64,000 bases of DNA from assembly GCA_036566745.1 (NCBI GenBank), contig DATCVR010000339.1, forward strand, positions 2,580 through 66,579, given 5' to 3'. Shown here piece after piece: positions 28,352 through 43,021 of the stretch. Each line of letters opens with the position of its first letter. The first letter of the stretch is position 1. The position numbers and the translations under genes are program-made. This DNA is from Jiangellaceae bacterium. Lineage in GTDB: Bacteria > Actinomycetota > Actinomycetes > Jiangellales > Jiangellaceae. The notes under the pieces were generated by a model. The model ran no database searches and was not told the origin of the DNA. It saw nothing but the letters and a program-made list of their open reading frames with translations.

Positions 28352-29251
28352 TCAGGGGAGCGGCGTGGCAGCGGGCACGGTGGAGGGCCGGCGGGTGCGC
28401 AGGACCTGGTCGAGGGTGCCGCCCAGCACGAGCCCCAGCTCGATCGCGTCCCACCACGGTGAGAGGTCGCGCACGACGGCCAGGGACTGGGTGTACGTGA
28501 GATGGGTGCGCGCGGCCGGGAAGTCCGATCCCCAGGCCAGCCGGTGCGCGCCGAAGGCGTGGGCGATCGGCCGGGTGATCCGCTCACGCGCCTCGGCGTA
28601 CGGAAAGCTCCACGACGGCACCGTCAGGTAGTGGTACCCCGAGATCTTGACGTGCACGTTCGGCAGCTCCGCGAGGGCGAGCAGGGCGGCGAGGTCGGCG
28701 TCGAAGGTGGGCGAGTCCAGCCGGACGCCGCCCTGGTGGTGCAGCAGGATCGGCAGGCTCGGATGACGTCGCGCGACCTCACGCAGCGCGGCGAACCAGG
28801 CCGGCGTCACCGCGAGCGAGGCCACCAGGTCGAGCTCGGCCGCCGCGGCGAAGAACTCCAGCCCGTCGTCGTGGGCGAACCATCCGTCGTCGGTGTCGCC
28901 GACGTAGTGGGTGAACGCGCCCAGCTCGTAGCGCTCGACGCTCTCGCGGAGCCGTTCGGCCGCGCCGGGGCGGTGGTGTTCCGGCCGCCACACGCAGTCG
29001 ACGTCGGCGACCACGACCAGCCGGTCCGGATGCCGGGCGGCCGCCGCGGCGACGTAGTCGTTGTCGTCGTCGTTGGCGAAGTCGGGGCCGATCTCGTGCC
29101 CGATGCGCGCACACACGACGGCCGCGCGTTCGACGTCGTGCCGGTCCATCTCGTAGAGCAGGGCCTCGACGGAGCCCTTGTGGTCGGCGTCGGGTACCCG
29201 CGCGTCGTAGGGCCAGCGTCGCCAGGCATGGCAGTGGCTGTCGAGGATCAC
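28352..29251 (-). CDS. Amidohydrolase-2 family protein (second copy in the window)
   Basis: VILDSHCHAW metal motif, LLHHQGG, WGSDFP. GTG start at 29251 after GAGG. Confidence 0.75.
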   Translation of the reverse strand: MILDSHCHAWRRWPYDARVPDADHKGSVEALLYEMDRHDVERAAVVCARIGHEIGPDFANDDDNDYVAAAAARHPDRLVVVADVDCVWRPEHHRPGAAERLRESVERYELGAFTHYVGDTDDGWFAHDDGLEFFAAAAELDLVASLAVTPAWFAALREVARRHPSLPILLHHQGGVRLDSPTFDADLAALLALAELPNVHVKISGYHYLTVPSWSFPYAEARERITRPIAHAFGAHRLAWGSDFPAARTHLTYTQSLAVVRDLSPWWDAIELGLVLGGTLDQVLRTRRPSTVPAATPLP

Positions 29252-32700: not shown

Positions 32701-32799
32701 GGGTGCGGCGACGGCTGGCGTGCCGGCCAGGGCGCTCCAGCCCAGCGCTAGTGCGAGCAGCGGCGACAACGTGGTGCGGAGGTGACGGGGTCTTCGCAT
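29770..32799 (-). CDS. Secreted multidomain glycoside-hydrolase-like protein (signal peptide, Ig-like domain, clan-GH-A-like TIM barrel, repeated beta-sandwich/CBM-like modules)
   Basis: Signal peptide MRRPRHLRTTLSPLLALALGWSALAGTPAVAA. FIVGNEVD (Asn-Glu acid/base-like) and VILSEQG (nucleophile-like). Two D-F-[SD]-D-G-T-Q-G-W module starts. My recollection is that the barrel resembles Pfam DUF5722 (unverified). Confidence 0.8.
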   Translation of the reverse strand: MRRPRHLRTTLSPLLALALGWSALAGTPAVAAPTSTAGEAPPASPAAAGTGVTSVRATDAAVTVSGLAAAGSTVDLYALATEADESSWASGEPVATVTTAADGTFSADVARTSGERDLYYAKYLAVADGAALGTYHYVDDVQITSTNQFPYPDSPTKKGLQVQLTADAEELGIGHAGINVAFNSLMQLEDKGDGQSIPFTSNGTEYYFDADAVAGLDRQIKPLSDNGAVVNLILILYRDGAANSAWPVLKHPDADLSGGPVFGFNTETAEGVAYYTAAIEFLAERYTREDQQFGRATGFIVGNEVDAQWVWQNMGVKTLDEFLLAYERALRITYLATRTAYDEARTYTSLTHSWRTASGPTDPPGRFYPGRDVVDGLNALTKAHGDYPWYIAHHPYPENLLDPAFWEDVTATPDPETTERITFKNIEVLNEYLLRDEQLYNGQPRRVILSEQGCNTPGTSAEAEKLQAACYALAYYKIRFLPAIDSFILHRHVDHKVEGGLRLGLWWWDDTVDAPAPPAEQKLIYDVFKYIDTERSLEVTDFALDVIGIDDWSEVVDGWDPDALAVRDLPVTVGASSTATPRKTTTVSDFSDGTQGWRTSDAANTVAATGGFLRTSFTYEAGMAANLAKLWRGTDVVLPEPLDASSATALSLRVRIPADADIGSRYAKVKVYGADGSVAEGTARLPENGDWQRVSVDLSGWDGRSSIARIKVWARGDTNAEWSGHVDLDDVQVARQLAGADRAVNVEIDAAATGGIGVGESVEVTVRNDDLSPLEEEIEVKACDGIRVSPAELGAQGLAPGESRTFTVTVTGSAPADPYDPTMCFSIATRQYAEKVDVPPKPVPVATPIYDFDDGTVQGWQAGEGMDSVAAVTSTANGPGSPQSGSHALDGAATVGSSLAPKTMFVDAAEPIDLGDAATVVAYVNSYGGAPGATSYEVTFTLASGTDTLTVTEPYAPDGWNEVSLDVSGWAGRSSVDHVEVTMHAVGADYPTWNPHFQVDSIGWFGADA

Positions 32800-32822
32800 G
32801 GCGGACTCCTGTCCGGCGGGGT

Positions 32823-32866
32823 TGAGACGTTTCAGAGACTGTGGCCCAGCAGGTACCCGGAGGCAA
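32823..32866 (-). promoter_or_regulatory. Operator TGAAACGTCTCA with CAGTCT -10 (minus strand) upstream of the secreted enzyme gene
   Basis: The operator is the complement of 32823-32834, the -10 of 32836-32841, and a possible -35 TTGCCT of 32861-32866 (19-nt spacer). Confidence 0.45.
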
Positions 32867-33064
32867 CGGTCCGCCGGCCCGGTGACCTGATCCGGTCAGG
32901 TGGCGGGCCGGTGCGGGAGCTCTGGTGGGTGAGCCGCCGCGCCATGCCGGACGACACCTGAGCGGTCCCTGACCGGTACCGGCCGGGGCCTCGCGCGATC
33001 GCGGGACGGCTGCCTAGCGTCGGAGCCGCCGAACCCGTTCACGGACCTCCCGAGGAGACCCACG

Positions 33065-34315
33065 ATGACGAACCCGGTACCGCTCGGACTGGTCGGCTGC
33101 GGCGGCATGGGGCAGCGGCACGTCCTCGGCTACGAGGCGCTGCGGGCCACCGGTCACGCCGCCGTCGAGATCGTGGCCGTGTGCGACACCAACGAGGAGA
33201 ACGCCCGGCGCGCCGCCGCCGAGGTGGCACGGGTGGACGGTCGCACGCCGTCGGTCCATCTCAGCGTGGAGTCCGCCCTCGCCGATCCGGCCATCGCCGC
33301 GTTCGACGTGGTCACCGACGCGAGCAGCCACGTCGGCGTCGTCGTCCCGCTGCTCGAGGCCGGCCGGCATGTCATGTCGGAGAAGCCGCTGGGCCTCACC
33401 GTGCGGTCGTGCCGGCGGATGATCGAGCTGGCGGCGAAGGCCGGCGTCGTGCTGGCCACGGCCGAGAACTACCGGCGCGATCCGGTGAACCGGCTGGCCA
33501 AGGCGGTCGTCGACAGCGGACTCCTGGGTGAGCTGCACCTGATGACCCAGACCGCCGTGGGCGGTGACGACCGTATCGTCATCACGCCGTGGCGGCACCT
33601 CAAGGAGCGCGGCGCCATCGGCCTCGACATGGGCGTGCACCTCACCGACATCGTGCGGTACTACCTCGGCGAGATCGAGAGCGTGTTCGGCCGCGGGCTC
33701 ATCGCCGAGCCGGTGCGCCGCCGCCAGCCCGGGCCGGAGCTCGAGCTGGAGTCCTACCGGGCGCGCTTCGCTGAGATCCCCGAGCAGGTGGTGGCCACGG
33801 GCGAGGACTCGGTGATCGCGATGTACCGGATGCGGTCCGGCGTGAGCGTCACCGTGGCCTACGTGCCGTCCGGGCCCGGGCACTCGTACTGGCAGCGCAC
33901 TGTGCACGGGCGGGCGGGGTCGATGGCGGTCCCGGTGGATCGCAGCGGCGGGCCGGTGGAGGTGCGGCGGGCCGCGGGCGTCCTGCGTGGCCGCGAGCTC
34001 CTCGGCGAGCTCGACGGCTTCGAGCTCGACCGCACCACCGCCGAGCTCTTCGGCCCCGGCGGTGTCACCTACGACCTGGCCTCAGCGCAGGTCGACGCTG
34101 CTCTGCTGGCGATCGAGCTGCAGGACTTCGGCGAGGCGATCCAGGCCGGTCGCCCGCCGGAGGTGGACGGGACCGGAGGGCTGAACGCCGTCGCGGCGGT
34201 GCTCGCGGCGTACGAGTCCGACCGGCTCGGGCGCTCGGTCACGATGTCCGAGGTGCTCGACGGATCCGTCTCGGGCTATCAGGACGAGATCGACGCGGCC
34301 CTGGGCTTGCGGTAG
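33065..34315 (+). CDS. Gfo/Idh/MocA-family oxidoreductase
   Basis: LGLVGCGGMGQRH Rossmann motif and HVMSEKPL. SD GAGGAG upstream. Confidence 0.8.
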   Translation: MTNPVPLGLVGCGGMGQRHVLGYEALRATGHAAVEIVAVCDTNEENARRAAAEVARVDGRTPSVHLSVESALADPAIAAFDVVTDASSHVGVVVPLLEAGRHVMSEKPLGLTVRSCRRMIELAAKAGVVLATAENYRRDPVNRLAKAVVDSGLLGELHLMTQTAVGGDDRIVITPWRHLKERGAIGLDMGVHLTDIVRYYLGEIESVFGRGLIAEPVRRRQPGPELELESYRARFAEIPEQVVATGEDSVIAMYRMRSGVSVTVAYVPSGPGHSYWQRTVHGRAGSMAVPVDRSGGPVEVRRAAGVLRGRELLGELDGFELDRTTAELFGPGGVTYDLASAQVDAALLAIELQDFGEAIQAGRPPEVDGTGGLNAVAAVLAAYESDRLGRSVTMSEVLDGSVSGYQDEIDAALGLR

Positions 34316-35109
34316 CCCGTGCGCACGGCCAGTTCGGAGGCGATGGCGTCGAGGTCGTGGCGGCAGCGGGCGATCCGCTCACGGGTGGCCTGCGACTTGA
34401 GCATGGTCAGGCTGACACCGTGCAGGCCGCGCTGCGGGTCGTCGCTCGGGACCACGCGTCCGACGCAGTACATGCCCTCCAGGGTCTCCTCGTCGTCGAC
34501 CGCGAACCCGTCGGCACGCACCTTCTCCAGCTCGGCCGCCAGCGAGCGCGCATCGGCGATCGAGTGGGGCGTCAGTCGGGGAAGCGGTCCGGAGGCCCGC
34601 AGCCTGGCCTGCACCTCCGGCCACGGCAGCGTGCTGAGCATGGCCTTTCCGGTGGCGGTGGTGGTGGCGACGAGGCGACGGCCGACGTCGGAGGCGATCC
34701 GGACCGGGCCGGTGCCCTCCTTGCGGGCGAGGTACGCGACGTCGAGGCCACGGTCGAGGATGGACAGCTGCACGGTCTCCTGCAGGCCGGGCGCGACTTC
34801 GCGGCAGACGGCGTAGAAGGTCGTGACGATGTCGACCGTGCGCAGGTAGGCGCTGCCGAGCCCGACCAGCCGGTGACCGAGCTGGTAGCCGACGCCCTCG
34901 CGGCGGGCCAGCCCCGACTCCACCAGCGCGTCGCAGATGTAGGCCGCCGACGATTTGGCGATGCCCAGCTCGCGGGCGATCTCGGTGGGGCCGACGGCGT
35001 TGCCCTCGGCGGCGGCGAAGATCTCCAGGATCGCCGCCGCGCGGCTGACCGCAGGCGCGCGGCTGCGTCCGATGTCGAGCGTGGCGCCGGTGGTCGAGGG
35101 TGCGGGCAT
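34279..35109 (-). CDS. IclR-family transcriptional regulator
   Basis: HTH GPTEIARELGIAKSSAAYICDALVESGL plus an IclR effector domain. The 860-aa ORF is trimmed to MPAPSTTG at 35109. Confidence 0.85.
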   Translation of the reverse strand: MPAPSTTGATLDIGRSRAPAVSRAAAILEIFAAAEGNAVGPTEIARELGIAKSSAAYICDALVESGLARREGVGYQLGHRLVGLGSAYLRTVDIVTTFYAVCREVAPGLQETVQLSILDRGLDVAYLARKEGTGPVRIASDVGRRLVATTTATGKAMLSTLPWPEVQARLRASGPLPRLTPHSIADARSLAAELEKVRADGFAVDDEETLEGMYCVGRVVPSDDPQRGLHGVSLTMLKSQATRERIARCRHDLDAIASELAVRTGYRKPRAASISS

Positions 35110-35238
35110 GGCGCTCCCTTCGGAGCAACGTCGGGCAACACGGTGGCGCGGCCGCCGAGGGTGGCCGTGACCGGACACGGTGCTGCGCAGGTCGTGCCGG
35201 CGCGGCAATGATAGGCCGTGTTCATCACCAGGCGTCAT

Positions 35239-35254
35239 GTTCGCTCTAGAGAAC
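35239..35254. promoter_or_regulatory. Imperfect 16-bp palindrome GTTCGCTCTAGAGAAC (candidate IclR operator)
   Basis: 6 of 8 half-site matches around a perfect CTCTAGAG core. It is unusually AT-rich for this genome and lies 11 nt before the ALDH GTG. Confidence 0.3.
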
Positions 35255-35265
35255 GGTCGGACAGA

Positions 35266-36648
35266 GTGACCCCAACGAACGCGGTACGCACCGTCGACCC
35301 GTCCACCGGCGAGCTCCTCGCCGAGCACCCGCTGTGGAACCACGCGCAGGCCGCCGCCGCACTCGACGACGCCTGGACCGCCTGGCAGTCGTGGCGCCGG
35401 CGCTCGCTCCATGACCGGGCCGCCGCGCTGGCCCCGCTGGCCGATGCGCTGCGCGAGCGCGAGGACGATCTCGCCGGGATGCTGACCGCCGAGATGGGCA
35501 AGCCACTGGCGGCAGCGCGGGCGGAGATCCGCAAGACCGCCGACGCGGTGACCGCCGTGGTGCGCCACGCCCCCGACGCGCTGGCCTCGGAGGAGCGCGC
35601 GGCCGATCCGCCGGGCCGAGCGCTGGTGCGCTACGACTCTCTCGGACCCCTGCTCGGCATCATGCCGTGGAACTTCCCGTACTGGCAGAGCGCGCGGTTC
35701 CTCCTCCCCGCGCTGGTGGCGGGCAACGTCGTGCTGATCAAGCCGGCACCGTCGACGCTCGGCAGCGCGGGCGTCCTCCAGTCGGTGATCGACTCGCTCG
35801 GCCTGCCGTCCGGCGTGGTGCGGACCGTGCCCGTCGACGTCGACGAGGTGGCGGCGCTCATGGCCGACCCGAGGCTGCGCGGGGTGAGCCTCACCGGGAG
35901 CGCCCGGGCGGGGCGAGCCGTGGCCGAGCTGGCCGGCCGGCACCTCACCAAGGTCGTCCTCGAGCTGGGTGGATCGGATCCGTTCATCGTGCTGCCGGAC
36001 GCCGACGTCACGGCGGCCGCCGCGGCGGCGATCGCCTCGCGGATGCAGAACAGCGGGCAGAGCTGCATCGCCGCCAAGCGGTTCCTCGTCCACCCCGACG
36101 TGGCCGAGGAGTTCGTCGCGGCTCTGGTCGACGGTGTGGCCGGCCTCGTCGTCGGCGATCCGACCGACCCGGAGGTGAGCGTCGGGCCGCTCGCCACGGC
36201 CGACGCCGTCGCCACGATCGAGGCCCAGGTCCGCGCGAGCGTCGACGCGGGCGCCACCGTGGCGATCGGCGGCAGGCGGCTGGACCGACCGGGATTCTTC
36301 TACGCGCCGACGGTCCTCACCGGCGTCGACGCCTCCATGCCGTGCGTGGCGGAGGAGGTGTTCGGGCCGGTCGCGGCCGTCTCGACGGTCGCCGACGTCG
36401 ACGACGCCGTCGCGCAGGCGAACGCCAGCGAATACGGCCTGGGCGCCAGCGTCTGGACGGCCGACCACGGCCTCGCCACCGACCTGGCGGCGCGGCTCGA
36501 GGTCGGGCAGGTGTTCGTCAACGGCATGGTGGTGTCGGACGCGCGGTACCCCTTCGGCGGGGTCAAGAGCTCCGGCTTCGGCCGCGAGCTGGGCCCGGAG
36601 GGGTTCCGCGAGTTCACCAACGTCAAGCTCGTGCGGGTGATGGGATGA
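35266..36648 (+). CDS. NAD(P)-dependent aldehyde dehydrogenase (succinate-semialdehyde/lactaldehyde DH-like)
   Basis: VLELGGSDP and the catalytic NSGQSCIAAKR. GTG start at 35266 (VTPTNAVRTVDPSTGE); the ORF-track start is 35218. Confidence 0.85.
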   Translation: MTPTNAVRTVDPSTGELLAEHPLWNHAQAAAALDDAWTAWQSWRRRSLHDRAAALAPLADALREREDDLAGMLTAEMGKPLAAARAEIRKTADAVTAVVRHAPDALASEERAADPPGRALVRYDSLGPLLGIMPWNFPYWQSARFLLPALVAGNVVLIKPAPSTLGSAGVLQSVIDSLGLPSGVVRTVPVDVDEVAALMADPRLRGVSLTGSARAGRAVAELAGRHLTKVVLELGGSDPFIVLPDADVTAAAAAAIASRMQNSGQSCIAAKRFLVHPDVAEEFVAALVDGVAGLVVGDPTDPEVSVGPLATADAVATIEAQVRASVDAGATVAIGGRRLDRPGFFYAPTVLTGVDASMPCVAEEVFGPVAAVSTVADVDDAVAQANASEYGLGASVWTADHGLATDLAARLEVGQVFVNGMVVSDARYPFGGVKSSGFGRELGPEGFREFTNVKLVRVMG

Positions 36649-37202
36649 GCCCGCCGGTCCATCGGGCCGACCGGGCAGACCTGGCCGACCGGGCAGACCG
36701 GGTCGCGGCGCTGCTGGGTGCTCCGGTGCGCCAGCTCGCATTCGTGGTGCGCGATCTCGAGGCGAGCATGCGGTCCTGGGCCGATCTCCTCGACGTCGGC
36801 CCATGGTCGGCGTACCCGCTAGGCCCGCCGCGGTTGCGGGAGATGGTCTACCGCGGCACACCGGCCGAGTTCTCCTTCTGGCACGCCCTGGCGTGGTCGG
36901 GCGAGCTGCAGGTCGAGCTGGTGCAGCCGGTGAGCGGCCCGAGCATCTTCGCCGAGCACCTCGAACGACACGGCGAGGGGATGCACCACGTCGGCGTCGT
37001 CGTGCCGGACCACGCCGCGGCGAGCCGGCTGCTGCTCGCGCGAGGGTTCACGCCCGTGCAGAGCGCCGCCGGGTTCGGCCTCGACGGCAGCGGGCGTTTC
37101 GCCTACTTCGAGCCGCCGCCCGGCCTGGGCATCGTCGTCGAGCTGATCGACCCGCCCGTGGTCCGGGCCGAGCCCGACGCCGTCTACCCGAAGGAGCGCT
37201 GA
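36645..37202 (+). CDS. VOC (glyoxalase/dioxygenase) family protein
   Basis: VRQLAFVVRDLEASM...GEGMHHVGVVVPD...VELI pattern. ATGA overlap with the ALDH stop. Confidence 0.7.
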   Translation: MSPPVHRADRADLADRADRVAALLGAPVRQLAFVVRDLEASMRSWADLLDVGPWSAYPLGPPRLREMVYRGTPAEFSFWHALAWSGELQVELVQPVSGPSIFAEHLERHGEGMHHVGVVVPDHAAASRLLLARGFTPVQSAAGFGLDGSGRFAYFEPPPGLGIVVELIDPPVVRAEPDAVYPKER

Positions 37203-37205
37203 GCG

Positions 37206-38333
37206 ATGCGGATCGAGCAGGTCGAGGTGCTGCCAGCGGCGGGCGCCCTCTACGTCCGGATCACCACGGACGACGGCACGACCGGGGTGGGGGAGAGCAC
37301 CTTCTTCGGCTGGCCGGCGGCCGCAGGGGTGATCGCGGACTCGTTCGTGCCCCCTCTCGTCGGAGCCGACCCCTTCGACACCGAGCATCTCTGGCTCACG
37401 CTCTACCGGGCGTTCTGCTTCCGGGGGATGGCCGTCGTCGGGGCGATCAGCGCGGTCGACCAGGCGCTGTGGGACCTCAAGGGCAAGGCGCTCGACGAGC
37501 CGGTGTGGCGGCTGCTGGGTGGTCGCGTGCGCAAGGGCGTACGGGCGATGCGGGTGCTGCCCTACGGCACGCCGGACGAGGTCGCGAAGGCGGGCCTGGC
37601 GGCGGTCGAGGAGGGATACACCGCCGTGAAGGCGCTGCTCTTCCAGAGTGAGCACCACCGGATGCCGCTGGCCCGGCGGCTGGGTGATCTCGTCGACCGG
37701 ACCGCCCTGCTGCGCGACGCGCTCGGCCCGGACGTCGACCTCGCGATCGAGCTGCACCGCAACATGGGGCCGGGCGACTCCCTCATGCTCATGGACGAGA
37801 TCGCGCGCTTCCGGCCGATCTTCGTCGAGGACCCGATCCCGCCGGACAGCGTCCTTTCCCTGGGCGAGATCGCGCGCAAGGCCCGGGTGCCGATCGCCGC
37901 GGGCGAGCGCAACACGACCATCTGGGAGTTCCGCGAGTACATCGAGCACGGCGGCATCGACGTGGTGCGGCCGGACGTCGGCATCGCGGGTGGCATCACC
38001 CACGTCCGAAAGATCTGCGCGCTGGCCGAGTCACACCACCTGCTGATCGCTCCGCACGCGGTGCCCTCGGGCCCGGTCGCCACCGCGGCGCACGTCCAGC
38101 TGGGCCTGGCGAGTCCGGGGTGGGAGTGGCAGGAACACGTGCCGCAGGACACCGACCCGCGCTGCGCCGAGGTGGTCGACGCGGTCGTGCCGGTGGTCGA
38201 CGGGTGGCTGGTCCCGCCGGATCGTCCCGGGCTGGGCATCGAGCTCGACGACGACGGGCTGGCGCGGCACCCCGCGACGGCTCCCGCGATCGAGGTGCCC
38301 CTGCGCGAGAGCGAGGCGGTGGCGTTCCGATGA
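37206..38333 (+). CDS. Enolase-superfamily (mandelate racemase/galactonate-dehydratase-like) acid-sugar dehydratase
   Basis: GVGESTFFG, AISAVDQALWDLKGK, DLAIELH, FVEDP, AAGER, VRPDVGIAGGIT. SD AAGGAG upstream. Confidence 0.85.
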   Translation: MRIEQVEVLPAAGALYVRITTDDGTTGVGESTFFGWPAAAGVIADSFVPPLVGADPFDTEHLWLTLYRAFCFRGMAVVGAISAVDQALWDLKGKALDEPVWRLLGGRVRKGVRAMRVLPYGTPDEVAKAGLAAVEEGYTAVKALLFQSEHHRMPLARRLGDLVDRTALLRDALGPDVDLAIELHRNMGPGDSLMLMDEIARFRPIFVEDPIPPDSVLSLGEIARKARVPIAAGERNTTIWEFREYIEHGGIDVVRPDVGIAGGITHVRKICALAESHHLLIAPHAVPSGPVATAAHVQLGLASPGWEWQEHVPQDTDPRCAEVVDAVVPVVDGWLVPPDRPGLGIELDDDGLARHPATAPAIEVPLRESEAVAFR

Positions 38334-39463
38334 CGCGGAAACCGATGGGTGCGCGGCCCGCGGTGGCGATCGCCCTCCGCGCCGACCTGCGCGCGAGCAT
38401 GATCGCCGACGCCGAGCTGGCCCGGCTGCGGGAGTTCGCCGACGTCCGCATCGCCGAGTTCGGCGGAGCCGTGCACACCTACGAGCGCCCCGAGCCCGAC
38501 GCCGAGGCAGAGGCCGGGCTCGCGGCGTTCGCGGCCGGTGCCGACGCGCTGGTCGTCACGCACGGCGCCCCGCGGGTCACCGCCGAGGTGCTCGCCGCCT
38601 GCCCGGACCTGCGGTTCGTGGGCGAGCTGGAGGGTGATCGCTTCGCCGGCCGGATCGACGTGGACGCGGCTGCGGCCCGTGGCGTCGTCGTGGTCGACAC
38701 CACGCACGGCTCGTCCTGGCCGGTCGCCGAGTACGCGCTGGCCATGGCGATCCTCGGGCTCCGCGACTCGGGGCGCTACGTCCGGGCGCTGGCCGAGGGC
38801 GAGCCGGTGGCGAACGCGGCCCGCGGTGACGCGGCGCGCCTGGGCAACCGGGAGCTGACCGGGCGGCGCGTCGGCCTGGTCGGCTTCGGCCACATCGCCT
38901 GGCGGCTGGTCGAGTTCCTCCGGCCGTTCCGGGTCACGCTGGTGGCGCACGATCCCTACGCGCCGCGAGAGATCGGCGACGCCCTGGGCGTGTCGTTCGG
39001 CTCGCTCGACGCGGTCATGTCCACCAGCGACGTGGTGATCTGCCTGGCGCCCCTCACGCCGTCCAGCCGAGGCTCGATCACCGAGCGTCACCTGCGGTCG
39101 CTCCGTCCGGGCAGCGTGTTCGTGAACGTCTCCCGGGGCGCGGTGGTCGACGCCGTGGGCCTCGAGGCTGTGGCGGCTCGGGGCGAGGTGGTGTTCTGCC
39201 TCGACGTGCTCGATCCGGAGCCGGTGCCCGTCGGCCATCCACTGCGCGCTCTGCCCAATGTCCTGCTCACCCCCCATCTGGCCGGCACCACCGACGACGC
39301 CGGGCAGCGCTTCTTCGCCCTCATGGTCGACGAGCTGCATCGCTTCGCCGCCGGCCTGGAGCCGCAGGCTCAGCTCACCCCGCGGGTGATGGCCGGCCGG
39401 CACGACGACGGCGCCCACGCCCGCCTCACGACCACCCTCTCCGCGGAAGGATCCAGCCGATGA
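38330..39463 (+). CDS. D-isomer-specific 2-hydroxyacid dehydrogenase family protein
   Basis: GLVGFGHIAWRL, NVSRGAVVD, DVLDPEP, TPHLAG. ATGA overlap with the enolase stop. Confidence 0.8.
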   Translation: MTRKPMGARPAVAIALRADLRASMIADAELARLREFADVRIAEFGGAVHTYERPEPDAEAEAGLAAFAAGADALVVTHGAPRVTAEVLAACPDLRFVGELEGDRFAGRIDVDAAAARGVVVVDTTHGSSWPVAEYALAMAILGLRDSGRYVRALAEGEPVANAARGDAARLGNRELTGRRVGLVGFGHIAWRLVEFLRPFRVTLVAHDPYAPREIGDALGVSFGSLDAVMSTSDVVICLAPLTPSSRGSITERHLRSLRPGSVFVNVSRGAVVDAVGLEAVAARGEVVFCLDVLDPEPVPVGHPLRALPNVLLTPHLAGTTDDAGQRFFALMVDELHRFAAGLEPQAQLTPRVMAGRHDDGAHARLTTTLSAEGSSR

Positions 39464-39756
39464 TCGTCCTGGTCGCCAAGTACTACCTGAAGTCCGTCGA
39501 CGACCTCCCGGCGGTGCGGTCCGCGCTCGAGGAGATGGCCGTGCGAGTCCGGGCCGACGAGCCGGCCTGCACGCTCTACCAGGCCTCGGTGTCGACCGAG
39601 CGTCCCGATCTGGTCATGCTCTACGAGCACTACACCGACGAGGCCGCCTTGCTGGCTCACCGCGAGACCCCGCACTTCGCCGAGCTGGTCGAGGGTCGCG
39701 TGGTGCCGTTGCTCGACCGCCGCGAGCGCGAGGTCTACGAGCTGCTGGTGTCCTGA
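39460..39756 (+). CDS. ABM-domain (dimeric alpha+beta barrel) protein
   Basis: 98 aa with MIVLVAKYYLK...LYEHYTDEAALLAHRETPHF, a typical ABM pattern. ATGA overlap upstream and TGATG overlap downstream. Confidence 0.7.
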   Translation: MIVLVAKYYLKSVDDLPAVRSALEEMAVRVRADEPACTLYQASVSTERPDLVMLYEHYTDEAALLAHRETPHFAELVEGRVVPLLDRREREVYELLVS

Positions 39757-40826
39757 TGCGGCTCGTCTCGTTCACCACGGAGGTGGCCGGTGTCGGCCGC
39801 CGGCATCACCTGGGTGCGCTCGCCTCCGACGCCACCACCGTCGTCGACCTGCCGACGGCCACCGAGGCCCGGCTGGTGGCGCACGGGCTGCCGGTGTCGG
39901 CCGCGACGCGGGTGGCGGCCGGCCTCGTGCCGGCCGAGCTGCGCGCGTTCGTCGAGAACGCGGAGCTCGATCTCGACGCCGCCCGCGAGGCGCTGACCTG
40001 GGTCGAGGCCACGGGCACCGAGCTCGGGCCTAGCGGCGCGGCGCTCGTGCACGAGCTCGACACCGTGACGGTGCGCCCGGCCGTGCCCGAACCCTCGCTC
40101 ATCCGCGACTTCATGGCCTTCGAGCAGCACCTGCGCAACATCTATCCGCGGCTCGGCCGGGAGATCCCGGAGGAGTGGTTCGCCCTGCCGGTCTACTACA
40201 AGGGCAACCCGCAGTCGGTCGGGGCGCATCTGGACGAGATCGTCATGCCCGACTACGCCGAGGGGCGGCTCGACTTCGAGTTCGAGGTGGCGGCGGTGAT
40301 CGGCCGGGGTGGTCGCGACATCGCGGTCGAGGACGCGATGTCGCACGTCTACGGCTACACGATCTACGACGACTTCTCCGCCCGCGACACCCAGGCCCGC
40401 GAGATGTCCGTGGGTCTCGGGCCGGCCAAGGGCAAGGACTTCGACCGCGCCCACGTCCTCGGACCGTGGCTCGTCACGACCGACGAGATCGCCGACCCGT
40501 ACGCCCTGGCCATGCATGCCGACGTCAACGGCGAGGCGTGGGCGACCGGGTCCACCGGCGACATGCACTGGCGGTTCGAGCAGATGATCGCCCACGCCTC
40601 GCGCGGGGAGACGCTCCGGCCGCTGGAGGTGTTCGGCTCCGGGACGGTCGGCGGAGGAAGCGCGGCCGAGCGCGGGGCCACGCTGGGCGCCGGCGACGTC
40701 GTGGAGCTCCGCGTCGACGGCCTCGGCCTGCTGCGCAACACGATCGTGGCCGCAGGAGGCCGGAATCGACCGGAATCGGACGTGCCACAGGTCCGTAACA
40801 CTCCCTTGACACCACCGACACGATGA
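39756..40826 (+). CDS. Fumarylacetoacetate hydrolase-family protein (long form with N-terminal domain)
   Basis: IRDFMAFEQH, FEFEVAAVIGRGG, YGYTIYDDFSARD, GPAKGKDF, GDVVELRVDGLG. The non-conserved C-terminal tail runs into the next promoter. Confidence 0.8.
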   Translation: MRLVSFTTEVAGVGRRHHLGALASDATTVVDLPTATEARLVAHGLPVSAATRVAAGLVPAELRAFVENAELDLDAAREALTWVEATGTELGPSGAALVHELDTVTVRPAVPEPSLIRDFMAFEQHLRNIYPRLGREIPEEWFALPVYYKGNPQSVGAHLDEIVMPDYAEGRLDFEFEVAAVIGRGGRDIAVEDAMSHVYGYTIYDDFSARDTQAREMSVGLGPAKGKDFDRAHVLGPWLVTTDEIADPYALAMHADVNGEAWATGSTGDMHWRFEQMIAHASRGETLRPLEVFGSGTVGGGSAAERGATLGAGDVVELRVDGLGLLRNTIVAAGGRNRPESDVPQVRNTPLTPPTR

Positions 40827-40850
40827 GACAGTCTCACTGAATCGTTTTTA
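40806..40850 (+). promoter_or_regulatory. Promoter (TTGACA-17-CAGTCT) plus operator TGAATCGTTTTTA for the ABC permease genes
   Basis: -35 at 40806-40811, -10 at 40829-40834, operator at 40838-40850. Confidence 0.5.
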
Positions 40851-40923
40851 TGGACGACGTCATGGACGACGCCGGCGGGTAGCCGGCGACCGCGCGGGTC
40901 ACCCGTCGACGGAGGACAGACAG

Positions 40924-41880
40924 ATGGCAACAACCACTGGCGCTCCACCGGTAGTGCCACCGGTCGGCGATCCCGAGCCGCCGAGAGCGCGGCGGCGGAG
41001 CATCCCGTGGTTCGTCTACGTGGCGCTGCTGCCCCTGGCCGCGGTGCTCGCGCTCTTCCAGTACTACCCGGCGCTGAGCGGGATCTTCAGGTCGTTCTGG
41101 GACTGGAATCCCGGCCTCGAGTCGACCTTCGTCGGCCTCGACAACTTCGCCACGATGATGGACGACGAGATCTGGTGGCGGTCGTTCAAGAACCTCGGCT
41201 ACATCTTCGTGTTCGGGGTGGTGTCGTGGATCATCCCGATCATCGCCGCCGAGCTGCTCATCACGCTGCGCAGTGACCGGGCCCAGTTCGTGTTCCGCAC
41301 GCTGCTGATCATCCCGATGGCCTTCCCCGGCGTGGTGACGGCGCTGGTGTGGTCGTTCATGTACCACCCGAACAACGGCGTGATCAACAAGGCGCTGACC
41401 GCGATCGGGCTGGAGAGCCTGGCGCAGAACTGGGTCGGCGACCCGTCGTTCGCCTTGTGGTCGCTGCTGTTCATCGGGTTCCCGTTCATCGCCGGATTGC
41501 CGTTCCTGATCTTCTACTCGACCTTGCGGAACATCCCGCGGGAGATCTTCGAGGCCGCGGCGCTCGACGGCGTGAGCCGGGTGCGGAGGTTCTGGTCGAT
41601 CGACCTGCCGTTGATGGCCCGCCAGGTGAAGCTCCTGGTGTTCCTGGCCGTCATCGGCACCCTGCAGTACGGCTTCATGGCCTACATCGTCACCTCCGGC
41701 GGCCCGGACAACTCGACCATGGTGCCGGTGCTCCGGATGCTGAACGTCGCCTTCCAGGGCCAGGACTGGGGCTACGCCGCCGCGCTGTCCACCACGCTGT
41801 TCGTCTTCACGCTCGTCCTGAGCGGGCTCGTGGTGTTCGTCCGGCGCCGCGACTCCTCCACCAACGTCCGCGGCATGTGA
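40924..41880 (+). CDS. Carbohydrate ABC transporter permease (MalF/UgpA-like)
   Basis: Multiple TM segments and the EAA loop EAAALDGVSRVRRFWSIDLPLM. SD GGAGGA. Confidence 0.85.
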   Translation: MATTTGAPPVVPPVGDPEPPRARRRSIPWFVYVALLPLAAVLALFQYYPALSGIFRSFWDWNPGLESTFVGLDNFATMMDDEIWWRSFKNLGYIFVFGVVSWIIPIIAAELLITLRSDRAQFVFRTLLIIPMAFPGVVTALVWSFMYHPNNGVINKALTAIGLESLAQNWVGDPSFALWSLLFIGFPFIAGLPFLIFYSTLRNIPREIFEAAALDGVSRVRRFWSIDLPLMARQVKLLVFLAVIGTLQYGFMAYIVTSGGPDNSTMVPVLRMLNVAFQGQDWGYAAALSTTLFVFTLVLSGLVVFVRRRDSSTNVRGM

Positions 41881-41912
41881 GCGGCCCCGAGACGCAAGGA
41901 GTGTCTGTCACG

Positions 41913-42976: not shown

Positions 42977-43021
42977 TTGACACGCGGCTGCTCCGGGCCG
43001 AGCCTGAGTGAAACGTTTTTA
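42977..43021 (+). promoter_or_regulatory. Promoter (TTGACA-17-GAGCCT) plus operator TGAAACGTTTTTA for rhaI-SBP-rhaM-SDR
   Basis: -35 at 42977-42982, -10 at 43000-43005, operator at 43009-43021. Confidence 0.5.

What the first reader, a model, noticed from the sequence alone, without database searches (positions are those of the whole stretch)
33065..40826. IclR-controlled, translationally coupled six-gene operon (ALDH, VOC, enolase-family dehydratase, 2-hydroxyacid DH, ABM, FAH): an uncharacterised acid-sugar/deoxysugar route
Four of the five gene junctions overlap (ATGA at 36645, 38330 and 39460; TGATG at 39754-39758). The fifth has a 3-nt gap, so stoichiometric co-expression is likely. The enzyme set parallels the non-phosphorylative 6-deoxyhexose logic: dehydratase, then dehydrogenase, then FAH-type diketo hydrolase, then aldehyde/lactate oxidation. 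However, it uses a D-2-hydroxyacid-DH-fold enzyme instead of an SDR, and adds VOC and ABM proteins. The ABM fold is the same dimeric alpha+beta barrel superfamily as rhamnose mutarotase. A Gfo/Idh/MocA dehydrogenase (33065-34315) sits next to the regulator. The operon is wedged between the secreted enzyme and the rhamnose transporter but has no rha operator, so it has a separate inducer.
Basis: inference. Interest (0 to 1): 0.7.

Follow-up and report, generated by a model that had tools for sequence, protein, structure and literature searches.

The report
Conserved orphan sugar-acid breakdown operon
This tightly packed six-gene operon is real and is the core of a larger enzyme set, conserved across soil bacteria and often next to rhamnose-utilisation genes, that most likely burns an unidentified sugar by an oxidative route with no phosphorylation step and that nobody has characterised.

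Summary
Six + strand genes (ALDH, VOC, GalD-type enolase-superfamily dehydratase, D-2-hydroxyacid dehydrogenase, ABM, FAH) are joined by ATGA/TGATG overlaps or a 3-nt gap. A divergent IclR gene and a Gfo/Idh/MocA gene sit upstream.

Comparative genomics changes the unit. The invariant core is Gfo-VOC-enolase-HADH plus a cog3618 lactonase-like amidohydrolase, which lies apart in this window at 28352-29248. It occurs in 24-27 of 27 non-Chloroflexota loci that carry an enolase orthologue. ABM-FAH is an accessory pair; ALDH is less conserved, and two unrelated ALDH types have been recruited. All three FAH orthologues I sampled sit in this module.

A two-site operator (GTTCA..., then 19 bp on a GTTC-N8-GAAC palindrome) is conserved before IclR-linked module genes in actinomycetes and in Devosia. 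A separate LacI-type rha operator marks the neighbouring rhamnose genes and is absent from the IclR-ALDH gap.

No module protein reaches an NCBIfam equivalog cut-off. I found no paper describing this gene set.

Best reading: an oxidative, non-phosphorylative route (dehydrogenase, lactonase, dehydratase, beta-diketone hydrolase) for an unidentified sugar that travels with L-rhamnose. The roles of HADH, VOC, ABM and ALDH are inferred only. It is a new variant of a known kind.

The parts
28352..29248 (-). Amidohydro_2 (cog3618) lactonase-like gene. It is the orthologue of the lactonase found inside the module in other genomes. Here it lies 4 kb away in a separate operon (LuxR-like gene, lactonase, 674-aa unknown, GH78).
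   Evidence: Pfam PF04909. It is 44-61% identical to module lactonases in 12 loci. A family profile hits only cog3618 members: 4i6k, 2ffi, L-fucono-1,5-lactonase 4dlf and 4mup (which I recall as galactarolactone isomerase Gli). The best NCBIfam match is L-fucono-1,5-lactonase, at 36 bits against a 400-bit cut-off. The true start is near VILDSHCHAW.
33065..34315 (+). Gfo/Idh/MocA NAD(P)-dependent sugar dehydrogenase. It is an invariant module member and the presumed first (C1-oxidising) enzyme.
   Evidence: Pfam PF01408, PF22725 and PF02894. Present at 47-67% identity in 27 of 27 non-Chloroflexota loci with an enolase orthologue. The nearest structures are distant: levoglucosan dehydrogenase 6a3f at E 6e-22, DgpA, and glucose-fructose oxidoreductase.
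34279..35109 (-). IclR-family regulator, divergent from the operon. Its 3' end overlaps the 3' end of the Gfo gene by 37 nt.
   Evidence: Six-frame translation. Pfam HTH_IclR and IclR_C. Orthologues at 63% (L081) and 31% (Devosia-type loci) are linked to the module.
35220..35254 (.). Putative IclR operator. A degenerate site GTTCATCACCAGGCGT (35220-35235) lies exactly 19 bp upstream of the palindrome GTTCGCTCTAGAGAAC (35239-35254). The palindrome ends 12 nt before the ALDH start.
   Evidence: It is the only conserved block in the window/L081 intergenic alignment. The same two-site, 19-bp architecture occurs before module genes in L081, L013, L015 and L089. Exact GTTC-N8-GAAC occurs 4 times in 64 kb against 0.43 expected.
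35266..36648 (+). Aldehyde dehydrogenase resembling succinate-semialdehyde dehydrogenase (Sad/YneI type). Accessory module member.
   Evidence: Pfam Aldedh, E 6e-136. Best NCBIfam match is SSADH PRK09406, 492 bits against a 730-bit cut-off. Best PDB matches are Sad/YneI-type SSADHs, E 4e-112. Orthologues occur only in L081 and Devosia-type loci; L088 has recruited a different, GabD-like ALDH (34% identical). The start was revised by N-terminal comparison.
36645..37202 (+). VOC (Glyoxalase_4) metalloenzyme resembling methylmalonyl-CoA epimerase. Invariant partner of the enolase gene; its role is unknown.
   Evidence: Pfam PF13669. Nearest PDB match is 3gm5 at E 1e-13, then methylmalonyl-CoA epimerase 1jc4. 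Present in 26 of 27 loci. Invariant residues Q30, H80, E91, H115 and E166 fit a VOC metal site.
37206..38333 (+). Enolase-superfamily acid-sugar dehydratase with the D-galactonate dehydratase (GalD) catalytic template. Substrate unassigned.
   Evidence: Pfam MR_MLE_N and MR_MLE_C. Scores 256 bits against the GalD model, cut-off 311. It is 31% identical to E. coli DgoD. E182/H184, E208, E234, D257 and H284 align with the DgoD motifs DFH, IEEP, GER, QPD and APH. The orthologue group (55-98% identity) is cleanly separated from the next tier (41% or less).
38330..39463 (+). D-isomer-specific 2-hydroxyacid dehydrogenase-family enzyme, predicted to use NAD. Invariant module member.
   Evidence: Pfam 2-Hacid_dh and 2-Hacid_dh_C. 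No NCBIfam cut-off is reached; the best is PGDH at 130 bits against 454. Nearest PDB matches are 1wwk and 4hy3. The sequence has GxGxxG...D and the Arg/Glu/His triad motifs SRG, DPEP and TPH (my reading). Present in 27 of 27 loci.
39460..39756 (+). ABM-family small alpha+beta barrel protein, always immediately upstream of the FAH gene and coupled to it.
   Evidence: Pfam PF03992, E 5e-14. Weak similarity to the diketone isomerase LsrG: NCBIfam E 2.5e-5 and PDB 2gff E 4e-5. The ABM-FAH pair is conserved in L081, L083, L087, L088, L089, L013 and L015.
39756..40826 (+). Fumarylacetoacetate-hydrolase-family enzyme with an N-terminal domain. Probably a beta-diketone C-C hydrolase. Its clade was found only in this module in the contexts sampled.
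   Evidence: Pfam PF01557, E 1e-55. Best PDB matches are 8sky (E 2e-29) and the L-2,4-diketo-3-deoxyrhamnonate hydrolase 8gsr (E 3e-26); the KdaD dehydratase 2q18 scores only E 2e-8. D118...H125 align with residues 126...133 of mouse fumarylacetoacetase 1qqj. Three orthologues chosen without regard to context all lie in the same module.

Best explanation
The six genes are the IclR-repressed part of a larger, conserved catabolic module. The module comprises Gfo dehydrogenase, a cog3618 lactonase, a GalD-type dehydratase, VOC and D-2-hydroxyacid dehydrogenase, plus the accessory ABM-FAH pair and an ALDH.

It most likely degrades a still unidentified aldose without phosphorylation. The proposed steps are:
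1. Gfo oxidises C1 of the sugar to a lactone.
2. The lactonase opens the lactone to an aldonate.
3. The enolase-superfamily enzyme removes water, giving a 2-keto-3-deoxy acid. Its catalytic template suggests a substrate with the C2/C3 configuration of D-galactonate, D-gluconate, L-arabinonate or D-fuconate.
4. That acid is oxidised to a 2,4-diketo acid.
5. The ABM protein (a tautomerase or diketone isomerase) hands the diketo acid to the FAH enzyme.
6. FAH cuts the C-C bond, giving pyruvate plus a short 2-hydroxy acid.

HADH is either the 4-dehydrogenase of step 4 or the dehydrogenase that converts a D-2-hydroxy acid product to a 2-keto acid. VOC is a metal-dependent epimerase or isomerase at a step I cannot place. 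The SSADH-like ALDH removes a semialdehyde side product or branch product.

The substrate probably reaches the cell together with L-rhamnose, as part of rhamnosides cleaved by GH78 enzymes.

What is shown: gene identities, conservation, coupling, and the operator. What is inferred from families: steps 1-3 and 6. What is speculative: step 4 and the roles of HADH, VOC, ABM and ALDH.
For: - Families and junctions.
- Core synteny: Gfo 27/27, HADH 27/27, VOC 26/27 and lactonase 24/27 of non-Chloroflexota orthologue loci. ABM-FAH is present in 7, plus the window. Pfam-labelled contexts.
- Enolase: the catalytic residues align with E. coli DgoD.
- Lactonase: the family profile hits only cog3618 members.
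- FAH: it is closer to the diketo-hydrolase LRA6 and to YisK than to the KdaD dehydratase. It keeps the DFxxxxQH segment, which maps to residues 126-133 of fumarylacetoacetase. In all three contexts sampled, the FAH orthologue lies in this module.
- Transport: a dedicated CUT1 ABC transporter is orthologous in five lineages.
- Rhamnose linkage: GH78, RhaI/RhaB or RhamD-Gfo2 lie next to the module in the window, L083, L085-type loci, L087, L088, L091 and L092.
- In L083, one lactonase and one FAH are shared by two dehydrogenase/dehydratase pairs, one of which includes an equivalog-level L-rhamnonate dehydratase. This suggests the two routes converge on similar intermediates.
- The IclR operator is conserved across phyla.
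- Precedent: KDR/KDP 4-dehydrogenases and hydrolases have been drawn from different superfamilies (PMC6336799; reference list of PMC10444878).
Against: - No D-2-hydroxyacid-dehydrogenase-family enzyme known to me oxidises a hydroxyl that is not alpha to a carboxylate. HADH as 4-dehydrogenase would therefore be a new reaction for the fold.
- Most core loci (20 of 27) have no ABM-FAH within 10 kb. Some carry an SDR, a second GalD-like enolase, a muconolactone-isomerase-like protein and E1 alpha/beta instead. The end of the pathway is therefore variable.
- The hydrolase route produces no aldehyde, yet two unrelated SSADH-like ALDHs have been recruited.
- VOC, which is invariant, has no role in any described route of this kind.
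- The nearest solved relatives of the Gfo enzyme oxidise C3, not C1.
- The substrate is unknown, and there are no expression or enzyme data.
Confidence: 0.55

Rival explanations
1. Weimberg-type route to 2-oxoglutarate. A pentose (for example L-arabinose or D-xylose) or a hexarate is oxidised and dehydrated to a 2-keto-3-deoxy acid. That acid is dehydrated again by FAH or VOC to 2,5-dioxopentanoate, which the SSADH-like ALDH oxidises to 2-oxoglutarate.
For: The trio enolase dehydratase + FAH-family enzyme + ALDH is the archaeal pentose pathway pattern (from my own knowledge; reviewed in PMC9795676, which was listed but not read). ALDHs of SSADH type were recruited twice. The GalD-type template fits L-arabinonate or D-xylonate. 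Gfo-family pentose 1-dehydrogenases are known; the NCBIfam Gfo6 model hits weakly.
Against: FAH matches the KdaD dehydratase only at E 2e-8, against E 3e-26 for the diketo-hydrolase. JGI names its orthologues with the COG0179 name, whereas the KDP dehydratases belong to COG3970. ALDH is absent from most module loci. HADH and ABM are left unexplained.
Confidence: 0.15
2. Oxidative uronate/aldarate route for the uronic acid that accompanies rhamnose in pectin RG-I, gum arabic or ulvan-like polymers. Gfo acts as the uronate dehydrogenase, the amidohydrolase as the lactone isomerase or hydrolase, and the enolase as the lactone cycloisomerase or aldarate dehydratase. Downstream enzymes process 5-keto-4-deoxyglucarate.
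For: GH78, sulfatase and heparinase-II/III-like genes lie next to some modules. The amidohydrolase profile also hits 4mup, and the enolase hits 4ggb/4hpn. From memory, these are the A. tumefaciens galactarolactone isomerase and cycloisomerase. The ALDH could be a 2-oxoglutarate-semialdehyde dehydrogenase. HADH could act on the alpha-hydroxy acid end of an aldarate.
Against: The similarities to Gli and Gci are weak (E 1.6e-4 and E 1e-32, far below the best hits). No KdgD-type enzyme is present. CUT1 ABC transporters are more typical of neutral sugars. L081 and Devosia modules have no pectin or uronate genes nearby.
Confidence: 0.1
3. The module is a third catabolic route for L-rhamnose itself.
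For: It recurs next to rhamnosidases and rhamnose genes.
Against: The window and loci L083, L087 and L091 also carry a separate L-rhamnonate dehydratase with its own Gfo partner; this dehydratase passes the NCBIfam equivalog cut-off in the window and in L083. The module enolase is only 28% identical to that dehydratase and has the GalD two-histidine template. L081 and Devosia modules have no rhamnose genes. The IclR-ALDH promoter lacks the rha operator.
Confidence: 0.05
4. A pathway for a non-sugar (aromatic or lignin-derived) acid. The best NCBIfam model for the IclR is PcaR-like. The 4,5-cleavage pathway uses LigC (Gfo family) and LigI (Amidohydro_2). Enolase-superfamily members include muconate cycloisomerases.
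For: IclR best NCBIfam hit is PcaR/PcaU/PobR. The amidohydrolase profile hits a putative 2-pyrone-4,6-dicarboxylate hydrolase. A muconolactone-isomerase-like gene occurs in some variants.
Against: The enolase has the acid-sugar dehydratase template, not the muconate-lactonizing one (muconate model 85 bits against GalD model 256 bits). The dedicated transporter is of the sugar (CUT1) type. Neighbours are glycosidases and rhamnose genes. No ring-cleavage dioxygenase is present.
Confidence: 0.03

Closest known systems
Non-phosphorylative L-rhamnose pathway, diketo-hydrolase branch (LRA1, 2, 3, 5, 6; described in bacteria and archaea), and the analogous L-fucose pathway of Xanthomonas campestris
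   Same: The order of chemistry matches: sugar 1-dehydrogenase, lactonase (cog3618 in the fucose route), enolase-superfamily dehydratase, oxidation to a 2,4-diketo-3-deoxy acid, then an FAH-family C-C hydrolase giving pyruvate plus lactate. There is no kinase and no aldolase. The window carries recognisable parts of this pathway elsewhere: RhamD 20742-22025, Gfo2, an LRA6-like FAH 9182-10039 and LldD.
   Different: The dehydrogenase is Gfo/Idh/MocA, not SDR. The dehydratase is GalD-type, only 28% identical to RhamD. The FAH has an extra N-terminal domain and is only 32% identical to the LRA6-like paralogue. There is no SDR 4-dehydrogenase in the minimal modules. VOC, D-2-HADH and ABM are added, and none of these belongs to the known routes.
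Route III of non-phosphorylative pentose metabolism (Herbaspirillum huttiense; PMC6336799)
   Same: A 2-keto-3-deoxy acid is oxidised at C4 and cut by a COG0179 FAH-family hydrolase, giving pyruvate plus glycolate. This route coexists with a 2-oxoglutarate branch that needs an ALDH.
   Different: There the dehydratases are UxaA/GarD or IlvD type and the 4-dehydrogenase is an SDR. The hydrolase has the His-x-x-Glu pair, whereas the window FAH has His-Leu-Arg-Asn (my reading); from memory, true fumarylacetoacetase also has Asn at that +3 position.
Weimberg / archaeal pentose oxidation pathway
   Same: Gfo-family sugar dehydrogenase, enolase-superfamily pentonate dehydratase, an FAH-family enzyme and an ALDH.
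   Different: The FAH member there is a dehydratase (KdaD/XylX type), to which this FAH is only distantly related. That pathway has no HADH, VOC or ABM.
Agrobacterium oxidative D-galacturonate pathway (Udh, Gli, Gci, KdgD, ALDH)
   Same: A dehydrogenase, then a cog3618 amidohydrolase acting on a lactone, then an enolase-superfamily enzyme, and an ALDH at the end.
   Different: Similarities to Gli and Gci are weak. There is no KdgD. The dehydrogenase family differs.
LsrG/LsrF step of autoinducer-2 degradation
   Same: An ABM-fold isomerase converts a diketone to a 1,3-diketone, which the next enzyme cleaves. The ABM-FAH pair here may follow the same logic. ABM shows weak similarity to LsrG.
   Different: The similarity is marginal (E about 1e-5). 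The cleaving enzyme here is an FAH hydrolase, not a thiolase. This is a working analogy only.

Membership tests
Enolase superfamily, D-galactonate dehydratase (GalD)-type acid-sugar dehydratases | Three carboxylate metal ligands at the ends of strands 3, 4 and 5; a His after the first ligand; and an Asp-His dyad on strands 6 and 7 | tested here: met
   E182/H184, E208, E234, D257 and H284 align with the E. coli DgoD motifs DFH, IEEP, GER, QPD and APH. K142, E208, E234, D257 and H284 are invariant across all nine aligned sequences, which include DgoD, a second GalD-like paralogue and RhamD. The first ligand is Glu rather than Asp. The DgoD residue roles are from memory.
D-galactonate dehydratase DgoD (isofunctional equivalog) | Score above the NCBIfam NF010624 cut-off (311 bits) | tested here: not met
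   256.1 bits. 31% identity to E. coli DgoD. No dgoK or dgoA neighbours.
L-rhamnonate dehydratase (LRA3/RhmD) | Score above the NF011968 cut-off (393 bits) | tested here: not met
   The module enolase scores 115.7 bits. The separate gene at 20742-22025 scores 417.9 bits and does meet it.
FAH superfamily | FAA_hydrolase C-terminal domain with the ExE...D metal motif and a Lys | tested here: met
   PF01557, E 1e-55. The motifs FEFE, DDFSARDTQ and AKGKDF are present and align with solved members.
2,4-didehydro-3-deoxy-L-rhamnonate hydrolase (LRA6 equivalog) | Score above the NF053535 cut-off (500 bits) | tested here: not met
   108.9 bits. The paralogue at 9182-10039 scores 315 bits over its full length, which is also below the cut-off.
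FAH-family C-C hydrolases (as opposed to dehydratases or isomerases) | A catalytic His that activates water (His133 with Glu364 in fumarylacetoacetase; a His-x-x-Glu pair in the COG0179 hydrolases) | tested here: inconclusive
   The alignment coordinates place D118 opposite residue 126 of 1qqj, which puts H125 opposite His133 if the stretch is ungapped. The partner Glu could not be located. The His-x-x-Glu pair described in PMC6336799 is His-Leu-Arg-Asn here.
cog3618 lactonases of the amidohydrolase superfamily | Amidohydro_2 fold with HxH...H...D, and nearest relatives that act on lactones | tested here: met
   PF04909. The HxH motif at the N-terminus is near-invariant (DSHCHAW); H108, H200 and D236 are invariant. 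The profile hits only 4i6k, 2ffi, 4dlf (L-fucono-1,5-lactonase), 6uvz and 4mup. No equivalog cut-off is met (36 bits against 400). Activity is not testable here.
D-isomer-specific 2-hydroxyacid dehydrogenases | Both domains, the GxGxxG-D nucleotide motif, and the Arg/Glu/His catalytic triad | tested here: met
   PF00389 and PF02826. GFGHIA...HD, SRG, DPEP and TPH are present in the sequence (my reading). No equivalog cut-off is met.
VOC superfamily metalloenzymes | Paired beta-alpha-beta-beta-beta modules with His/Glu-type metal ligands | tested here: met
   PF13669. Q30, H80, E91, H115 and E166 are invariant in 12 orthologues. It does not reach the methylmalonyl-CoA epimerase equivalog (35 bits against 115).
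L-rhamnose mutarotase (RhaM) | PF05336 domain | tested here: not met
   The ABM protein matches PF03992 only and has no BLAST similarity to the window's own RhaM. In the 98%-identical relative L086, the gene at the corresponding position is PF05336.
IclR-type regulon | An IclR gene next to its targets and a conserved palindromic operator in their promoters | tested here: met
   Divergent IclR gene. Two-site operator with fixed 19-bp spacing in seven promoters from three lineages. Binding itself is not testable here.
Rhamnose (LacI-type RhaR) regulon of this genome | TTGAAACGnnTCAA operator upstream | tested here: not met
   There are 10 strand-matches at six positions with 2 or fewer mismatches, against 0.39 expected: 17410, 20729, 29698, 32822, 42843 and 47065. 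None lies in 35110-35265. The lactonase operon (29698) and the DUF5722/Gfo intergenic region (32822) do carry it. A degenerate copy follows the FAH gene at about 40836.

The most novel reading that the evidence does not exclude
The module is a previously undescribed catabolic pathway for a rare sugar released together with L-rhamnose (for example a D-series 6-deoxyhexose such as D-fucose or D-quinovose, or another sugar with D-galacto/D-gluco C2-C3 configuration). In it, three enzyme folds carry out chemistry not known for them in sugar metabolism. A D-2-hydroxyacid-dehydrogenase-fold enzyme oxidises C4 of a 2-keto-3-deoxy acid. A methylmalonyl-CoA-epimerase-like VOC enzyme epimerises or isomerises a keto-acid intermediate. 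An LsrG-like ABM protein isomerises or tautomerises the diketo acid for a dedicated FAH hydrolase.
Probability: 0.3. Interest if true: 0.7.

Novelty: new variant of a known kind. Interest (0 to 1): 0.55.

Why it matters
The module is widespread. The enolase has 889 relatives at E 1e-60 or better and the FAH has more than 5,000 at E 1e-40 or better in the metagenome-scale protein set. They occur in soil Actinomycetota (Solirubrobacterales, Acidimicrobiales, Microbacteriaceae, Actinopolymorpha) and in Devosia; enolase orthologues also occur in SAR202-type Chloroflexota.

Every member is annotated only at superfamily level, and "galactonate dehydratase" is probably wrong for the enolase.

Assigning the substrate would name five to eight genes in many genomes. 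It would explain what accompanies rhamnose in the rhamnosides these bacteria import. It could also add new reactions to the VOC, ABM and D-2-HADH families.

The conserved operator and the compact operon make the system directly testable.

Tried and rejected
1. Known isofunctional families. NCBIfam gave no equivalog for any module protein. The PDB neighbours of the enolase are unannotated structural-genomics entries. A literature search on their PDB codes found nothing relevant.
2. Published pathways with this gene content. Searches combining enolase superfamily, FAH, 2-hydroxyacid dehydrogenase, glyoxalase and 2-keto-3-deoxy terms found none. The rhamnose regulon survey PMC3870299 does not mention these families. 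DUF5722 appears in no paper.
3. Plasmid relatives in model rhizobia. Only 39%-identical haloarchaeal dgoD genes were found.
4. IclR control of the separated lactonase. A GTTC-N8-GAAC palindrome at 29706 looked promising. However, it overlaps a good LacI-type rha operator at 29698, and by my count on the sequence printed its upstream GTTC lies 21 nt away, not 19. I do not claim it.
5. Guessing the co-substrate from the secreted DUF5722 enzyme. A confident AlphaFold model (pLDDT 95.6) matched only generic clan GH-A TIM barrels at TM about 0.5 (GH1, GH53, GH39, GH26). With the invariant GNE and SEQG motifs, it looks like a new retaining glycosidase family, but its specificity cannot be read.
6. 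The 674-aa cytoplasmic protein (26279-28303) and the 761-aa secreted protein of L083. No usable Pfam or NCBIfam hit and no similarity to each other.
7. Sulfoquinovose, levoglucosan, 3,6-anhydrogalactose and apiose pathways were considered and set aside. Their signature enzymes (GH31 sulfoquinovosidase, LgdB-type isomerases, AHG-type context, RuBisCO-like proteins or DUF1537 kinases) did not appear in any of the Pfam-labelled contexts examined.
8. Rfam found no riboswitch or other RNA family in 28000-47500.

Full report
**1. What is in the sequence**

The window has about 72% G+C, so I called genes by third-position G+C. Between 33065 and 40826 there are eight genes:
- Gfo/Idh/MocA dehydrogenase, 33065-34315 (+)
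- IclR regulator, 34279-35109 (-). It is read inside a long antisense ORF, and its 3' end overlaps the 3' end of the Gfo gene by 37 nt.
- On the + strand: ALDH, VOC (Glyoxalase_4), an MR_MLE enolase-superfamily protein, a D-2-hydroxyacid dehydrogenase (HADH), an ABM protein and an FAH-family protein (Pfam).

The junctions are exactly as reported: ATGA at 36645, 38330 and 39460, TGATG at 39754, and a 3-nt gap after the VOC gene with a GAAGGAG ribosome-binding site. The ALDH probably starts at GTG 35266 rather than 35218.

**2. No member has an assigned function**

Against NCBIfam, none of the eight proteins reaches a curated cut-off:
- Enolase: 256 bits on the galactonate dehydratase model (cut-off 311).
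- FAH: 109 bits on the 2,4-didehydro-3-deoxy-L-rhamnonate hydrolase model (cut-off 500).
- ALDH: 492 bits on an SSADH model (cut-off 730).

The nearest solved relatives are:
- Enolase: unannotated structural-genomics entries 4e4u, 3rr1 and 2poz.
- ALDH: Sad/YneI-type SSADHs.
- Gfo: only distant relatives, including levoglucosan dehydrogenase, DgpA and glucose-fructose oxidoreductase.
- VOC: 3gm5, then methylmalonyl-CoA epimerase.
- ABM: 3kkf and LsrG, both weak.
- HADH: phosphoglycerate, formate and glyoxylate dehydrogenase-type enzymes.

Public names for the enolase relatives are only "galactonate dehydratase" or [quoted passage not shown].

**3. The real unit is a conserved module**

A scan of one genome per species found enolase orthologues at 55-66% identity, then a sharp drop to 41% or less. 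I tabulated 40 distinct orthologue loci: those from this scan plus loci retrieved through homologue look-ups (L081, L083, L087, L088, L089, L092).
- The 13 Chloroflexota loci keep only the enolase, plus a distant Gfo.
- Of the other 27 loci, all carry Gfo and HADH, 26 carry VOC, and 24 carry an Amidohydro_2 protein.

In this window, that amidohydrolase lies apart at 28352-29248 (-). It is 44-61% identical to the in-module copies. A family profile hits only cog3618 members, including L-fucono-1,5-lactonase 4dlf and 4mup, which I recall as galactarolactone isomerase.

ABM-FAH is present in 7 of the 27 loci and in this window. Orthologous ALDH is present in 4.

Pfam-labelled contexts show the same picture:
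- L081 repeats the window's architecture at 60-74% identity, with five of five junctions overlapping, its own ABC transporter and no rhamnose genes.
- Actinopolymorpha singaporensis has Gfo-VOC-ENO-HADH-lactonase-ABM-FAH, followed by an L-rhamnonate dehydratase (437 bits, cut-off 393) and a second Gfo.
- Devosia-type loci have SBP-permease-permease-Gfo-VOC-ENO-lactonase-ALDH-HADH-...-IclR-ABM-FAH.

I chose three FAH orthologues (56-57% identical) only for their contig length. All three fell in the same module, so in the contexts sampled the FAH clade is dedicated to it. L088 has an ALDH at the same place that is only 34% identical and GabD-like. An SSADH-like ALDH has therefore been recruited twice.

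Acidimicrobiales variants lack ABM-FAH nearby. Instead they carry a second GalD-like enolase, a muconolactone-isomerase-like protein and E1 alpha/beta subunits.

**4. Regulation**

The only conserved block in the IclR-ALDH intergenic alignment of the window and L081 is a palindrome: GTTCGCTCTAGAGAAC in the window and GTTCACTATAGTGAAC in L081. Exact GTTC-N8-GAAC occurs 4 times in the window against 0.43 expected.

The same palindrome, always preceded at exactly 19 bp by a degenerate GTTCA site, lies before module genes in four other loci:
- L081, in the IclR-ALDH gap. A further single GTTC-N8-GAAC site lies between SBP and Gfo.
- Devosia L013 and L015, before SBP and before ABM.
- L089, before ABM.

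This supports IclR control.

Separately, a LacI-type motif TTGAAACGnnTCAA gives 10 strand-matches at six positions with 2 or fewer mismatches, against 0.39 expected. The positions are:
- before GH78b and LacI (17410)
- before RhamD (20729)
- before the LuxR-lactonase-unknown-GH78a operon (29698)
- next to the DUF5722 start (32822)
- a weaker match in the permease-RhaI gap (42843)
- before RhaEW (47065)

Degenerate copies lie before RhaI and just after FAH. None lies in the IclR-ALDH gap. In this organism, however, the module's lactonase belongs to the rhamnose regulon.

**5. Context: a rhamnose supercluster**

From about 9 kb to 51 kb the window carries three systems.

*The phosphorylative rhamnose route:*
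- RhaI 43054-44220, RhaM, RhaEW 47091-49142 and RhaB 49139-50587.

*Parts of the non-phosphorylative rhamnose route*:
- L-rhamnonate dehydratase 20742-22025 (418 bits, cut-off 393)
- a Gfo2 gene at 22022-23083, which overlaps the end of the dehydratase gene
- a second cog3618 amidohydrolase at 13297-14286
- an LRA6-like FAH at 9182-10039, adjacent to an LldD-like FMN dehydrogenase at 10127-11338

*The module itself, with two GH78 rhamnosidases nearby.*

The paralogous pairs are only 27-32% identical. Rhamnose genes or GH78 also flank the module in Solirubrobacterales (RhaB, RhaI), Microbacteriaceae (two GH78, RhamD-Gfo2), L088 (GH78, sulfatase), L091 and L092. They do not in L081 or Devosia.

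The module's own ABC transporter is orthologous in five lineages, and in two of them a GH78 gene directly follows it.

The module is therefore not the rhamnose pathway. It handles something that often arrives with rhamnose.

**6. Mechanism**

*Enolase.* It aligns with E. coli DgoD so that E182/H184, E208, E234, D257 and H284 match the DgoD motifs DFH, IEEP, GER, QPD and APH. This is the GalD-type template. By established enolase-superfamily knowledge (from memory), it abstracts the proton of a 2R acid sugar and expels the 3-OH. I therefore infer a dehydratase acting on an aldonate with the C2/C3 configuration of D-galactonate, D-gluconate, L-arabinonate or D-fuconate.

*Upstream steps.* Gfo plus a cog3618 lactonase fit the usual sequence of C1 oxidation followed by lactone opening.

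*FAH.* It is much closer to the L-2,4-diketo-3-deoxyrhamnonate hydrolase and to 8sky (which I recall as B. subtilis YisK) than to the KdaD dehydratase. Its segment RDFMAFEQH maps onto residues 126-133 of fumarylacetoacetase, which contain that enzyme's catalytic His133 (from memory). I infer a beta-diketone C-C hydrolase.

*The gap.* The route needs an oxidation between the dehydratase and the hydrolase. In the minimal modules (L081, Devosia) the only remaining NAD enzyme is HADH, so HADH as the 4-dehydrogenase is the economical reading. It would be a new reaction for that fold.

*The alternative for HADH.* HADH may instead oxidise a D-2-hydroxy acid product (D-lactate, D-glycerate or glycolate). 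This mirrors the adjacent LRA6-like FAH and LldD-like genes of the rhamnose route in this window, and an SDR often lies near the module. But that reading leaves minimal modules without a 4-dehydrogenase.

*ABM.* It is always translationally coupled to FAH, is weakly LsrG-like, and is replaced by a muconolactone-isomerase-fold protein in other variants. It is best read as a proton-transfer isomerase or tautomerase that feeds FAH.

*VOC.* It is invariant, has a complete metal site and resembles methylmalonyl-CoA epimerase. It is probably an epimerase or isomerase on a keto-acid intermediate, but I cannot place it.

*ALDH.* The twice-recruited SSADH-like ALDH implies an omega-oxo-acid intermediate that the simple hydrolase route does not produce. 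This is the main unexplained point, and it keeps a Weimberg-like branch alive.

**7. Rivals**

- Weimberg-type conversion to 2-oxoglutarate (0.15).
- An oxidative uronate/aldarate route for the uronic acid partner of rhamnose (0.10).
- A third rhamnose route (0.05).
- An aromatic-acid route (0.03).

Evidence for and against each is given in the rival entries.

**8. Comparison with known systems and novelty**

The module works like the diketo-hydrolase branches of the L-rhamnose and L-fucose pathways and like Route III of pentose metabolism (PMC6336799). It fails the equivalog tests for DgoD, RhmD and LRA6. It uses a Gfo rather than an SDR dehydrogenase, and it adds three families absent from every described route.

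I found no paper describing it. Work on SAR202 shows that many parallel, unassigned pathways of this type exist (PMC10444878), and its reference list includes a KDR dehydrogenase from the MDR superfamily alongside the better-known SDR type.

I classify it as a new variant of a known kind, of moderate interest. It is well defined, widespread and directly testable, but its logic is not surprising.

**9. Limits**

- All functional statements rest on family membership, motifs and gene context. No expression or activity data exist.
- Loci extend only 10 kb on each side, so "absent" means absent nearby.
- The residue roles in DgoD and fumarylacetoacetase, the Pfam clan membership of ABM, RhaM and MIase, and the identities of 3gm5, 4mup, 4ggb and 8sky are from memory.

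Noticed in passing
window 20742-23083 (+): An equivalog-level L-rhamnonate dehydratase (NF011968, 418 bits against a 393-bit cut-off). A second Gfo/Idh/MocA gene (22022-23083) follows it, and its start overlaps the end of the dehydratase gene. The same RhamD-Gfo2 pair sits next to the module in L083, L087 and L091. This suggests a Gfo-type L-rhamnose 1-dehydrogenase or KDR dehydrogenase.
   Followed up: partly
window 9182-14286 (-/+): A further cluster: an LRA6-like FAH (9182-10039; 315 bits on the L-rhamnonate diketo-hydrolase model, below the 500-bit cut-off) directly downstream of an LldD-like FMN dehydrogenase (10127-11338); a divergent GntR/LldR-like regulator (11422-12111); and a second cog3618 amidohydrolase (13297-14286). 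Together with RhamD and Gfo2, these look like a scattered non-phosphorylative L-rhamnose pathway that coexists with RhaI/RhaB/RhaEW.
   Followed up: partly
window 17410, 20729, 29698, 32822, 42843, 47065 (weaker copies near 40836 and 43020): A LacI-type operator, TTGAAACGnnTCAA, gives 10 strand-matches at six positions against 0.39 expected. It marks a rhamnose regulon that probably belongs to the LacI gene at 16180-17406. The regulon covers GH78b, RhamD-Gfo2, the LuxR-lactonase-unknown-GH78a operon, DUF5722 and RhaEW-RhaB.
   Followed up: partly
window 29260-29592 (-): An unannotated small gene (110 aa, GC3 0.93) with a C-terminal LuxR/GerE-type helix-turn-helix, by my reading of the sequence; NCBIfam gave no hit. 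It lies immediately upstream of the lactonase gene.
   Followed up: no
window 29770-32799 (-): A secreted 1009-aa DUF5722 protein. The family has invariant GNE and SEQG motifs. A confident AlphaFold model (pLDDT 95.6) resembles clan GH-A TIM-barrel glycosidases only weakly (GH1, GH53, GH39; TM about 0.5). It is probably an undescribed retaining glycoside hydrolase family. It is widespread in Actinomycetota, Verrucomicrobiota, Planctomycetota and Paenibacillus, and no paper mentions DUF5722.
   Followed up: partly
window 26279-28303 (-): A 674-aa cytoplasmic protein with no Pfam or NCBIfam match, lying between the lactonase and a GH78 rhamnosidase in the same transcription direction. It may be a new glycosidase or lyase for a rhamnoside.
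   Followed up: partly
window about 32885-32901 and 42930-42950: The palindrome ACCTGATCCGGTCAGGT in the DUF5722/Gfo intergenic region, with a near-copy (GTGACCTGATCCGGCCAG) upstream of RhaI. It may be the site of a third regulator. Coordinates are approximate.
   Followed up: no
window 34279-34315: The convergent Gfo and IclR genes overlap by 37 nt at their 3' ends, leaving no room for a terminator between them.
   Followed up: no
loci L005-L012, L014 (Acidimicrobiales MAGs): A variant of the module lacks ABM-FAH. Instead it carries E1 alpha and beta (thiamine-diphosphate) subunits, a second GalD-like enolase (about 40% identical), a muconolactone-isomerase-like protein and a LacI regulator. 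This suggests a different way of cleaving the same intermediate.
   Followed up: partly
loci L087 3704-4828, L089 7678-8739, L083 582-1409: A luciferase-like (LLM) oxidoreductase recurs in or next to the module in Microbacteriaceae, a Devosia-like genome and Actinopolymorpha. The L087 and L089 copies are 38% identical. Its role is unknown.
   Followed up: no
loci L017-L028, L033 (Dehalococcoidia/SAR202): Enolase orthologues at 55-57% identity occur in marine Chloroflexota. They are followed only by a distant Gfo gene (33-38% identical) and lack VOC, the lactonase and FAH nearby; two loci have an HADH-like gene about 4 kb upstream. This is consistent with the paralogue expansions reported for SAR202.
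   Followed up: no
window 40850-40872: The direct repeat ATGGACGACG-TC-ATGGACGACG lies in the 97-bp gap between FAH and the first permease gene, next to a degenerate rha-operator-like sequence CTGAATCGTTTTTA.
   Followed up: no
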